Below, piece after piece: positions 50,817-50,909 of a DNA stretch of 64,000 nt. The translations under genes and the position numbers were made by a program. Below the pieces are notes generated by a model. The model saw only the letters and a program-made list of their open reading frames with translations, was not told the DNA's origin and searched no databases. Position 1 is the first letter of the stretch; every line of letters begins with the position of its first letter. The stretch comes from a virus (taxonomy: Duplodnaviria > Caudoviricetes): positions 1 through 64,000 of IMG/VR virus record IMGVR_UViG_3300047160_007019. One strand, given 5' to 3'.

Positions 50817-50909
50817 TGGTGCTTGCGCTAGGATTCGAACCTAGATCGTGCGCTAATCGGGCGCTTCAGGGTCTATAAGGCCCTCGCTCTACCGTTGAGC
50901 TACGCAAGC
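50817..50909 (-). tRNA. tRNA-Ile(TAT) with extra arm carrying a GAT anticodon-like loop
   Basis: AGGGC-CTTATAG-ACCCT then GCGC-CCGATTA-GCGC before the T arm. Confidence 0.75.

What the first reader, a model, noticed from the sequence alone, without database searches (positions are those of the whole stretch)
50817..50909. tRNA with two isoleucine anticodon-like arms (UAU and GAU)
Seen: GCTTGCG TA GCTC-AACGGTA-GAGC G [AGGGC-CTTATAG-ACCCT] GAA [GCGC-CCGATTA-GCGC] ACGAT CTAGG-TTCGAAT-CCTAG CGCAAGC A CCA. The canonical-position arm has anticodon UAU, which is rare in bacteria because AUA is normally read by lysidine-modified CAU. The extra arm CGCCCGATTAGCG matches the anticodon arm of the array's own tRNA-Ile(GAU) (CGCCCGATAAGCG) at 12/13 nt. 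Long-variable-arm tRNA-Ile(UAU) species have been reported in some bacteria, as I recall. Inference: an Ile(GAU) tRNA acquired a second arm. The GAU arm might supply IleRS recognition or act as a nuclease decoy while UAU reads AUA without TilS, or the RNA may switch folds.
Basis: partly seen in the sequence, partly recalled or inferred. Interest (0 to 1): 0.75.

Follow-up and report, generated by a model that had tools for sequence, protein, structure and literature searches.

The report
Phage AUA tRNA with spare GAU arm
This soil-phage gene is a real isoleucine tRNA for the rare codon AUA that carries a second, conserved anticodon-like hairpin showing GAU, the ordinary isoleucine anticodon; the design is widespread, I found no paper on it, and the spare arm may be how the charging enzyme accepts it.

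Summary
Window 50817-50909 (minus strand) is a 93-nt tRNA with a UAU anticodon arm (H1) and a second hairpin (H2: GCGC-CCGAUUA-GCGC). H2 matches the anticodon arm of the array's own tRNA-Ile(GAU) at 12 of 13 bases.

It is not a local oddity. The same two-arm design recurs in more than 100 viral contigs, cultured Synechococcus, Vibrio and Acinetobacter phages, Xanthomonas plasmids and about 88 bacterial species. This scan has also noted it before on DNA of at least 67 other genomes.

- H2 stems covary while GAU stays fixed.
- An anticodon-blind scan gave UAU in 116 of 119 viral hits and 88 of 102 bacterial hits, and never CAU.
- In a 61-genome sample of the family that holds Actinomyces, the three carriers are exactly the three genomes without TilS.
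- The molecule reads as positions 1-43 of a UAU tRNA joined to positions 27-76 of a class I GAU tRNA. It is not a Ser/Leu/Tyr-type class II tRNA.

Best reading:
- It decodes AUA without lysidine (about 0.8).
- H2 gives IleRS its normal GAU determinant (about 0.5, inferred). The H2 loop subtype tracks host IleRS type only weakly (p about 0.01).

No paper describing this architecture was found.

The parts
50817..50909 (-). two-arm tRNA-Ile(UAU) gene, 93 nt including encoded CCA
   Evidence: ARAGORN. Rfam RF00005 at 57.3 bits. Five-arm cloverleaf fold. Family alignment 98.5% paired.
50868..50884 (-). H1, the decoding anticodon arm AGGGC-CUUAUAG-ACCCU. The anticodon UAU lies at 50875-50877. It has a C31.A39 mismatch, U33 and A37.
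   Evidence: All five H1 stem pairs show compensatory changes in the family.
50865..50867 (-). GAA linker between the two arms. This is the only non-canonical junction, and it is 0-4 nt long in the family (one outlier of 6).
50850..50864 (-). H2, the second anticodon-like arm GCGC-CCGAUUA-GCGC. Its GAU lies at 50856-50858, and it carries the C29'-G41' pair.
   Evidence: All 4 stem pairs are compensatory and 96.8% of cells are paired. The loop consensus is C-A/U-G-A-U-U/A-A.
50845..50849 (-). ACGAU: one nucleotide that closes H2 (A.A, like a 27.43 mismatch), then a 4-nt class I-type variable loop ending in U48.
   Evidence: The last base of this linker covaries with base 15, as the Levitt pair does (A15 with U48, G15 with C48). 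The spacing from H2 to the T-arm equals that of a class I tRNA-Ile(GAU).
50820..50844 (-). T-arm CUAGG-UUCGAAU-CCUAG, the 3' strand of the acceptor stem CGCAAGC, and discriminator A73
   Evidence: A73 is invariant in 141 of 141 family members.
50046..50120 (-). The array's ordinary tRNA-Ile(GAU). Its anticodon arm CUCGC-CCGAUAA-GCGAU has C33 and a 27.43 mismatch, and is the 12/13 partner of H2.
48736..51807 (-). Phage tRNA array of at least 37 genes covering all 20 amino acids, plus a CUA-anticodon tRNA. It holds only one CAU tRNA, and the phage record has no TilS.

Best explanation
The gene encodes a functional isoleucine tRNA that reads the rare codon AUA with an unmodified-type UAU anticodon (arm H1). 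It therefore needs no lysidine synthetase (TilS).

It belongs to a widespread and apparently undescribed family. In this family a class I tRNA body carries two tandem anticodon-type arms. H1 sits in canonical register to the D-arm and shows UAU. H2 sits in canonical register to the variable loop and T-arm and shows GAU.

Proposed mechanism (inferred): ordinary bacterial IleRS reads G34-A35-U36 and accepts UAU poorly. H2 presents the normal GAU loop, with A38' and the C29'-G41' pair, at the same distance from the tRNA core as a real anticodon. IleRS could reach it in one of two ways. Its C-terminal anticodon-reading domain could swing to H2, or H2 could stack on the D stem in place of H1. The ribosome then uses H1.

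This would make the tRNA a portable AUA decoder that works in whatever host a phage or plasmid enters. In this phage it completes a self-sufficient set of at least 37 tRNAs.

Sub-probabilities:
- Real, expressed tRNA of this family: 0.95.
- Ile-accepting AUA decoder independent of TilS: 0.8.
- H2 read by IleRS: 0.5.
For: Shown directly:
- It is a tRNA by ARAGORN, Rfam and folding.
- Family size: more than 113 viral contigs from a pattern that did not require GAU. In that sample 59 of 71 unique genes have the GAU arm, against 5 of 86 other long-arm tRNAs.
- H2 is a true helix. It has 31 different stems, all 4 pairs show compensatory changes, and 96.8% of cells are paired. GAU stays fixed while loop positions 33' and 37' vary.
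- H2 does not obey ribosomal loop rules. Position 33' is A in 72% of members and 37' is U in 58%. Real anticodon loops in the same loci have U33 in 97% and a purine at 37 in 98%.
- Linkage to UAU: the anticodon-blind scan gave 115 TAT plus 1 misregistered TAT among 119 viral hits, 88 TAT among 102 bacterial hits, and no CAT.
- TilS: absent from 5 of 5 Actinomyces carriers. In a 61-genome family sample the 3 carriers are exactly the 3 genomes without TilS (Fisher 2.8e-5, probably one evolutionary event). These genomes keep a normal tRNA-Ile(GAU).
- Geometry: a class I Ile(GAU) pattern hits H2 in each Actinomyces genome. The 3' linker is always 5-6 nt.
- The phage uses AUA: 49 of 610 Ile codons, spread over about half of its ORFs. 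It has no TilS and only one CAU tRNA.

From the literature:
- E. coli IleRS charges UAU poorly, and an Arg/Trp position in IleRS decides this (PMC3575796, PMC3919564).
- C29-G41 is an Ile identity pair (PMC9976931). H2 has C-G there in 117 of 141 members.
- In LeuRS, a related class I enzyme, the C-terminal extension contacts the long variable arm of tRNALeu (PMC3561953 abstract).

Suggestive:
- The H2 loop subtype tracks host IleRS type. U33' loops occur in IleRS2 hosts and A/G33' loops in IleRS1 hosts (one-sided p about 0.01).
- Cultured carriers infect or live in genera I take, from general knowledge and the E. coli and Synechococcus elongatus controls, to have IleRS1. All of them have A33' loops.
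Against: - There is no charging, modification or expression data. No RNA run holds the locus.
- In textbook geometry the variable side of a tRNA faces away from a class I synthetase, so an H2-IleRS contact needs domain movement or arm exchange. Neither has been shown.
- Actinomyces has eukaryote-type IleRS2. According to the literature this type tolerates U34, so H2 may not be needed for charging there, yet it is conserved.
- Twelve of the 71 long-arm UAU tRNAs lack a GAU arm.
- Class I UAU tRNAs work in M. mobile and B. subtilis.
- Eighteen of 20 other bacterial carriers keep TilS, so the tRNA is usually an accessory gene.
- The IleRS-type correlation has two exceptions (G263, G274). It rests partly on metagenome-assembled genomes and is not corrected for phylogeny.
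- My scan patterns forced U33 and A37 in H1 and GATWA in H2 in two of the three scans.
- This copy has a C31.A39 mismatch and a possible C32-G38 pair in H1.
Confidence: 0.55

Rival explanations
1. H2 is read by some other factor or tunes decoding. It might block or recruit a U34 or A37 modification enzyme. It might alter tRNA flexibility so that UAU does not misread AUG. It might bind EF-Tu or a ribosome site.
For: On E. coli ribosomes, UAU cannot tell AUA from AUG (PMC3575796), so a fidelity device would be useful. H2 is retained in Actinomyces although its IleRS2 probably accepts U34. The 33' and 37' positions differ between lineages.
Against: Nothing explains why the loop must be precisely G-A-U with A38' and C29'-G41', which is the IleRS determinant set. 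The variable-arm position is far from the decoding centre. No such factor is known.
Confidence: 0.17
2. H2 is a decoy or shield in phage-host conflict. It would mimic the tRNA-Ile(GAU) anticodon loop to soak up or evade an anticodon nuclease.
For: The family is strongly enriched in phages and plasmids. In this array C33 occurs in Ile(GAU), Met(CAU) and Val(UAC) and at the matching place in H2. A second array with a CCGAUUA H2 loop (L228) is also rich in C33 tRNAs.
Against: H2 is strictly tied to UAU rather than scattered over tRNAs. It is conserved in about 45 Actinomyces species, and the five genomes tested lack TilS. A third phage with a CCGAUUA loop (L098) has no C33 tRNAs. No Ile-specific anticodon-loop nuclease is known to me.
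Confidence: 0.1
3. H2 is only a structural extra arm, and GAU is kept by common descent rather than by selection.
For: Two of my three scans required GATWA. Other long-arm UAU tRNA subfamilies without GAU exist.
Against: In the unconditioned sample, 83% of members have GAU against 6% of controls. There are 31 different stems and variable 33'/37' positions around an invariant GAU, across phages of many hosts, plasmids and several phyla. H2 length is fixed at 4 bp plus a 7-nt loop, unlike Ser, Leu and Tyr variable arms.
Confidence: 0.07
4. It is a class II-type tRNA, like nematode nev-tRNA or allo-tRNA, charged with Leu or Ser. AUA would then be mistranslated or recoded.
For: It has a long extra arm and A73. 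nev-tRNA-Ile(UAU) is charged with Leu (PMC3333845). 8/4 allo-tRNAs often bear UAU (PMC5389517).
Against: The D-arm is class I, with a 4-bp stem and 7-nt loop. The acceptor/T configuration is 7/5, not 8/4 or 9/3. The 3' linker is 5-6 nt rather than up to 3. There is no G73, which tRNA-Ser normally carries (all three array tRNA-Ser genes have G73). The array's own Leu tRNAs lack long arms. It stands in for TilS in Actinomyces with no sign of recoding.
Confidence: 0.03

Closest known systems
TilS-independent tRNA-Ile(UAU) ('tRNAIle3') of Mycoplasma mobile, Bifidobacterium and Neorickettsia, and the B. subtilis tilS suppressor (PMC3575796, PMC3919564)
   Same: UAU anticodon with U36-A37. It reads AUA without lysidine. 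It occurs in genomes that lack TilS, and here that holds for Actinomyces.
   Different: The known examples are, as far as I know (the two papers do not mention a long variable arm), ordinary class I tRNAs. There the enzyme adapts (Arg865 in M. mobile IleRS, or eukaryote-type IleRS). Here the tRNA carries a second GAU arm, and it is found mostly on phages and plasmids entering hosts that keep TilS.
Class II tRNAs with non-cognate anticodons: nematode nev-tRNA-Ile(UAU) (PMC3333845)
   Same: UAU anticodon plus a long extra arm between the anticodon arm and the T-arm.
   Different: nev-tRNAs have a Leu-type class II body and are charged with Leu. The present family has a class I D-arm, a 7-nt GAU loop on a 4-bp stem, and a full class I variable loop 3' of the arm.
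Allo-tRNAs with 8/4 or 9/3 acceptor/T structure, often with UAU (Mukai et al., PMC5389517)
   Same: Irregular tRNAs found in Acidobacteria and phages, often in tRNA arrays, with UAU among the commonest anticodons.
   Different: This tRNA has the canonical 7/5 configuration. Allo-tRNAs have Ser or Ala identity through the variable arm or G3:U70, and no GAU loop is described for them.
Recognition of the long variable arm by the C-terminal part of a class I synthetase (LeuRS; abstract of PMC3561953)
   Same: It offers a precedent that a synthetase of the IleRS/LeuRS/ValRS group can contact a variable arm with its C-terminal part.
   Different: That case concerns Leu identity and a normal class II arm. 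No anticodon mimicry is involved, and nothing has been shown for IleRS.

Membership tests
tRNA (Rfam RF00005) | Cloverleaf with acceptor, D, anticodon and T arms, scoring above the family threshold | tested here: met
   57.3 bits against a gathering score of 29. ARAGORN calls it. In the alignment of 141 genes, 98.5% of cells are paired against 69% in shuffles.
Two-arm tRNA-Ile(UAU/GAU) family (defined in this scan, unpublished) | H1 with UAU one nucleotide after a class I D-arm; H2 with a 4-bp stem and a 7-nt loop NNGAUWR; a 5-6-nt 3' linker to the T-arm; A73 | tested here: met
   All features are present at 50817-50909. The nearest relatives are L050, L123 and L134, which share the same D-arm and the same H2 stem.
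TilS-independent tRNA-Ile(UAU) (M. mobile type) | UAU anticodon with U33, U36-A37 and discriminator A73 | tested here: met
   The loop is CUUAUAG and the discriminator is A73.
TilS-independent tRNA-Ile(UAU) (M. mobile type) | Ordinary class I structure with a 4-5-nt variable loop | tested here: not met
   The region between H1 and the T-arm is 23 nt and contains H2.
TilS-independent tRNA-Ile(UAU) (M. mobile type) | The genome lacks TilS and relies on this tRNA for AUA | tested here: inconclusive
   The phage record has no TilS, but its host is unknown. The feature is met in Actinomyces and not met in 18 of 20 other carriers.
TilS-independent tRNA-Ile(UAU) (M. mobile type) | Charged with isoleucine by IleRS | not testable with these tools
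   This needs an aminoacylation assay.
Class II tRNA (Ser/Leu/Tyr, nev-tRNA) | Class II D-arm, extra arm followed by at most about 3 nt before the T stem, and identity marks such as G73 for Ser | tested here: not met
   The D stem is 4 bp with a 7-nt loop. The 3' linker is 5 nt here and 5-6 nt in 141 of 141 members. The discriminator is A73.
Allo-tRNA (8/4 or 9/3) | Acceptor stem of 8-9 bp with a T stem of 4-3 bp | tested here: not met
   The acceptor stem is 7 bp and the T stem 5 bp, both with compensatory changes.

The most novel reading that the evidence does not exclude
This is a natural 'split-anticodon' tRNA. The triplet the synthetase reads (GAU, on H2) and the triplet the ribosome reads (UAU, on H1) sit on two separate arms of one molecule, so amino-acid identity is uncoupled from decoding. 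Phages, plasmids and at least one bacterial genus (Actinomyces, which lost TilS) could then decode AUA with any host IleRS. It would be a new principle of tRNA identity and a ready-made scaffold for codon reassignment.
Probability: 0.45. Interest if true: 0.9.

Novelty: new variant of a known kind. Interest (0 to 1): 0.8.

Why it matters
Decoding AUA is the classic hard case of the genetic code. Bacteria normally need an essential enzyme (TilS) to turn a CAU tRNA into an Ile tRNA, and a plain UAU tRNA is poorly charged by E. coli-type IleRS.

A widespread tRNA that carries its own copy of the standard Ile anticodon loop on a second arm would be a third, tRNA-borne solution. It would explain how mobile elements supply AUA decoding in any host. 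It would also show that an essential modification enzyme has been replaced in a genus of the human oral flora.

The design is directly testable in cultured systems: Vibrio, Synechococcus and Acinetobacter phages, Xanthomonas plasmid pXCV183, and Actinomyces. In the records I opened, genome annotation labels these genes only as 'tRNA-Ile', or leaves them unannotated.

Tried and rejected
- Close relatives of the phage, sought through the two proteins flanking the array: none in IMG/VR.
- Megablast of the whole array against phages and plasmids: only single generic tRNAs matched.
- Literature: six full-text searches and nine papers read found no description of a tRNA-Ile with a second GAU arm.
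- Sequencing runs: no RNA holder is listed. DNA contigs from four soil runs match identically and show no variants, so they say nothing about expression or microevolution.
- Gene conversion between H2 and the array's Ile(GAU) arm: rejected. Identity stops at the 13-mer, and the GCGC stem is inherited in the subfamily.
- Same-genome resemblance between H2 and the co-resident Ile(GAU) arm in other loci: by reading three of the 19 loci (L003, L008, L012) the stems are unlike, and all 19 have U33.
- AUA positions in Actinomyces IleRS genes as a test of AUA = Ile: these genes contain no ATA codons.
- Covariation of base 26 with the base after H1 or after H2, to tell which arm stacks on the D stem: uninformative.
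- U33'-type queries against cultured phages: no match.
- The DUF5915 hit in G263 first looked like IleRS2. The IleRS ORF there carries zf-FPG_IleRS, so it was reclassified as IleRS1.
- TAG recoding by the CUA tRNA: no sign of it.

Full report
**1. Observation**

The minus strand of window 50817-50909 reads:

GCUUGCG UA GCUC-AACGGUA-GAGC G AGGGC-CUUAUAG-ACCCU GAA GCGC-CCGAUUA-GCGC ACGAU CUAGG-UUCGAAU-CCUAG CGCAAGC A CCA.

- ARAGORN calls it tRNA-Ile(tat).
- Rfam's tRNA model scores 57.3 bits against a threshold of 29.
- RNAfold returns the five-arm cloverleaf as both minimum-energy and centroid structure.

It is one gene of a tightly packed array on the minus strand, 48736-51807. ARAGORN finds 33 tRNAs at default settings. 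At a relaxed threshold it adds Glu(UUC), His(GUG), Tyr(GUA) and a fourth Leu(CAG), so all 20 amino acids are covered.

The record is an IMG/VR virus of 76,993 bp, estimated 94% complete. It encodes a portal protein, an internal virion protein, a small terminase, a DnaB-like helicase, RusA and an HNH endonuclease. The portal is 32% identical to those of Rhizobium phages. Pieces identical to the locus lie in several soil metagenomes.

The array's tRNA-Ile(GAU), at 50046-50120, has the anticodon arm CUCGC-CCGAUAA-GCGAU. The 13-mer CGCCCGAUUAGCG of the extra arm matches it at 12 of 13 bases. In 64 kb, both strands, it matches nothing else at one mismatch or fewer, where shuffles expect 0.12 matches.

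**2. A family, not a singleton**

A scan of IMG/VR asked for a class I D-arm, a CUUAUA loop and 22-36 nt before the T-loop, with nothing required in the extra region.

- After parsing, 71 unique genes have a clean cloverleaf, and 59 of them (83%) carry a 4-bp hairpin with a 7-nt loop centred on GAU.
- By the same test, 5 of 86 other long-arm tRNAs in the same loci do.

A second scan left the anticodon free (CUNNNA) but asked for GAUWA in the extra arm.

- Viral contigs: 119 hits. Of these, 115 are UAU and one more is UAU in a different register. The other three are unrelated.
- 185,579 species genomes: 102 hits, 88 with UAU. One real two-arm gene has GAU in both arms (L223). The rest are chance or intron-like matches. 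No hit has CAU.

The carriers fall into three groups.

- About 45 Actinomyces species and about 30 Pyrinomonadaceae or Blastocatellia.
- Planctomycetota, Verrucomicrobiota, alphaproteobacterial metagenome-assembled genomes (MAGs), Acidithiobacillus and Pseudoxanthomonas.
- Cultured carriers: Synechococcus phages DSL-LC02 and SynMITS9220M01, Acinetobacter phage vB_AbaS_qsb1, about 43 Vibrio phages (henriette 12B8; Achelous and relatives, Demerecviridae), and conjugative Xanthomonas plasmids such as pXCV183.

In the records I opened, the gene is annotated only as 'tRNA-Ile' or not annotated at all.

The scan's notebook shows that earlier agents met the same design on DNA of at least 67 other genomes.

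**3. Anatomy**

I aligned 141 unique members.

- Every helix is supported: 98.5% of cells are paired, against 69% in shuffles and 38-49% with slid partners.
- All four H2 pairs show compensatory changes, and 96.8% of H2 cells are paired. There are 31 different H2 stems.
- The H2 loop is C/U, then A (102), U (32), G (4) or C (3), then G-A-U, then U (82) or A (55), then A (127) or G (12).

H2 therefore keeps positions 34-36 and 38 of an Ile anticodon loop but ignores what the ribosome demands. Real anticodon loops in the same loci have U33 in 839 of 863 cases and a purine at 37 in 847 of 863.

H2 is always followed by one closing nucleotide, usually a mismatch like a 27.43 pair. Then comes a 4-5-nt stretch that looks like a class I variable loop (AGGUC, CGGUU, CGAU). 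Its last base covaries with base 15, as the Levitt pair does.

A pattern written for a class I tRNA-Ile(GAU) asks for YUGAUAA, 12-17 nt, then the T-loop. In each of five Actinomyces genomes it finds exactly two places: the normal tRNA-Ile(GAU) and H2 of the two-arm tRNA.

The molecule is therefore best described as positions 1-43 of a UAU tRNA joined, through 0-4 nt, to positions 27-76 of a GAU tRNA. A deletion fusing two tandem Ile genes would produce exactly this. That origin is an inference.

It is not a Ser/Leu/Tyr-type class II tRNA. The D-arm is class I, the 3' linker is too long, and the discriminator is A73. It is not an allo-tRNA either, because the acceptor/T configuration is 7/5.

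**4. What it does**

*(a) AUA decoding without TilS.*

- TilS (TIGR02432) is found in all 10 bacterial control genomes but in none of three Actinomyces carriers.
- In a 61-genome sample of that family, the two-arm tRNA occurs in three genomes. These are exactly the three with no TilS hit (Fisher 2.8e-5). It is probably a single evolutionary event.
- Those genomes keep a normal tRNA-Ile(GAU).
- So in Actinomyces the two-arm tRNA has taken over the TilS/tRNA-Ile2 job.
- Elsewhere it is an accessory gene: 18 of 20 other carriers keep TilS.
- In this phage AUA is rare but present: 49 of 610 Ile codons, spread over about half of the ORFs. There is no TilS in the record and only one CAU tRNA. UAU is therefore how the array covers AUA.

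*(b) The role of H2.*

E. coli IleRS charges a UAU tRNA poorly, and a single Arg/Trp position decides this (PMC3575796). B. subtilis IleRS, which has Arg there, charges it well (PMC3919564). A mobile element cannot choose its host's enzyme. A tRNA that brings the standard GAU loop with it would be charged anywhere.

Points in favour of this reading:

- H2 is strictly tied to UAU and never to CAU. In a CAU tRNA the lysidine is itself the determinant.
- Exactly the IleRS-relevant loop bases are conserved.
- The 29'-41' pair of H2 is C-G in 117 of 141 members. That pair is listed as an Ile determinant (PMC9976931). The same pair in H1 is free.
- H2 has a fixed length equal to that of a real anticodon arm.

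A new, modest test used DUF5915 as a marker of eukaryote-type IleRS2. The marker is validated by the control genomes.

- U33' loops (CUGAUAA, CUGAUUA) lie in IleRS2 hosts: Actinomyces, a Dehalococcoidales MAG, a Cytophagales MAG, and a Thorarchaeota variant.
- A/G33' loops lie in 16 IleRS1 genomes.
- There is one exception on each side: G263, which has IleRS1 with the zinc finger, and G274.
- The one-sided p is 0.003-0.012, uncorrected for phylogeny.
- The cultured carriers are hosted by Vibrio, Acinetobacter, Synechococcus and Xanthomonas. I take these to be IleRS1 genera from general knowledge and from the E. coli and Synechococcus elongatus controls, not from a test of those hosts. All of them have A33' loops.
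- The window's CCGAUUA falls in the non-U33' group, which fits the alphaproteobacterial host suggested by the portal.

Points against:

- A class I synthetase normally faces away from the variable side of the tRNA. IleRS would have to swing its C-terminal domain, as LeuRS's C-terminal extension does towards the long variable arm of tRNALeu (PMC3561953), or H2 would have to stack in place of H1. Neither has been shown.
- Actinomyces has IleRS2, which according to the literature tolerates U34, yet it keeps H2.

I put the IleRS-handle step at about 0.5.

**5. What is special about this copy**

Three tRNAs of this array have C33: Ile(GAU) CCGAUAA, Met(CAU) CCCAUAA and Val(UAC) CCUACAA. The background across the loci is 22 of 863.

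H2 here has C at the matching place, which is true of only 3 of 141 family members. One of the other two (L228) also sits in an array rich in C33 tRNAs (4 of 9). The third (L098) does not.

The 12/13 match is thus family-wide mimicry plus a shared C33 quirk and a shared C29-G41/G30-C40/C31-G39 stem. Whether one factor sees both loops, be it IleRS or a nuclease the phage avoids, is unexplained. With so few cases it is only suggestive.

H1 of this copy has a C31.A39 mismatch and a possible C32-G38 pair. About 7% of family members also have a 31.39 mismatch.

**6. Novelty**

TilS-independent tRNA-Ile(UAU) is known. A second GAU-bearing arm is not. I found no description of it in six full-text searches and nine papers. 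Those include the 2023 tRNA-identity review, a review of non-canonical tRNAs, and an October 2026 IleRS paper that still calls UAU tRNAs 'rare cases'. Subscription-only literature could not be searched.

I class it as a new variant of a known kind. If the split of identity and decoding onto two arms is confirmed, it would be a new principle of tRNA identity.

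Noticed in passing
window 48979-49056, 49058-49134, 49799-49876, about 51476-51555 (minus strand): All four tRNA-Leu genes of the array (CAA, UAA, GAG, CAG) are 77-80 nt and have no long variable arm, unlike normal bacterial tRNA-Leu. Short Leu tRNAs also occur in many of the other phage loci: about 63 of 101 Leu genes there are under 84 nt.
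   Followed up: partly
window 48736-48811 (minus strand): A tRNA with anticodon CUA, which ARAGORN labels 'Pyl'. It shares its acceptor stem with the array's tRNA-Arg(ACG) at 51394-51469, so it looks like an amber-suppressor derivative. TAG is still used as a stop codon in 10 of 58 predicted ORFs, and there is no sign of recoding.
   Followed up: partly
window 50046-50120, 49223-49298, 50485-50563 (minus strand): C33 replaces the near-universal U33 in the anticodon loops of Ile(GAU), Met(CAU) and Val(UAC). The background is 22 of 863 tRNAs across the loci. All three are substrates of the related IleRS, MetRS and ValRS enzymes.
   Followed up: partly
window 50046-50120 (minus strand): tRNA-Ile(GAU) has the D-loop AGCGAAA, without the usual GG, and the T-loop UUUGACU, with U56. 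This may be a compensated A19-U56 elbow pair. Its anticodon arm (4-bp GC stem, 27.43 mismatch, non-U33) has the hallmarks of an H2 arm.
   Followed up: no
window 49717-49792, 49965-50040, about 51560-51649 (minus strand): tRNA-Glu(UUC), tRNA-His(GUG) and tRNA-Tyr(GUA) are missed by ARAGORN at default settings and found at a relaxed threshold. They bring the array to at least 37 genes covering all 20 amino acids.
   Followed up: partly
L223 (Pyrinomonadaceae MAG), match at 1623-1683: A two-arm tRNA with GAU in both arms: the H1 loop is CUGAUAC and the H2 loop is CAGAUUA.
   Followed up: no
L228 (Blastocatellaceae MAG) 191-3414: A tRNA array holding a class I tRNA-Ile(UAU) with C33, a tRNA-Ile(AAU), several more C33 tRNAs, and a two-arm tRNA whose H2 loop is CCGAUUA.
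   Followed up: partly
L013, L081, L090, L096, L097, L100, L105, L067; L016, L020, L022; L056, L065, L074: Other UAU tRNAs with long extra regions but no GAU arm. One subfamily has ..CCCUAGCAAGG.., another has ..GGCGGUAGUCCCGG.., and three genes have a roughly 20-nt insert just 3' of the anticodon.
   Followed up: no
L273 (Xanthomonas euvesicatoria 85-10 plasmid pXCV183, record 31586-31671): An unannotated two-arm tRNA-Ile(UAU) on a conjugative plasmid, next to a dotA/traY gene. The same gene lies on nine other Xanthomonas plasmid records.
   Followed up: partly
G258 (Dehalococcoidales MAG holding L236): A second carrier lineage with no TilS hit and with IleRS2. This may be a second replacement of TilS, but the genome is a MAG and may be incomplete.
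   Followed up: no
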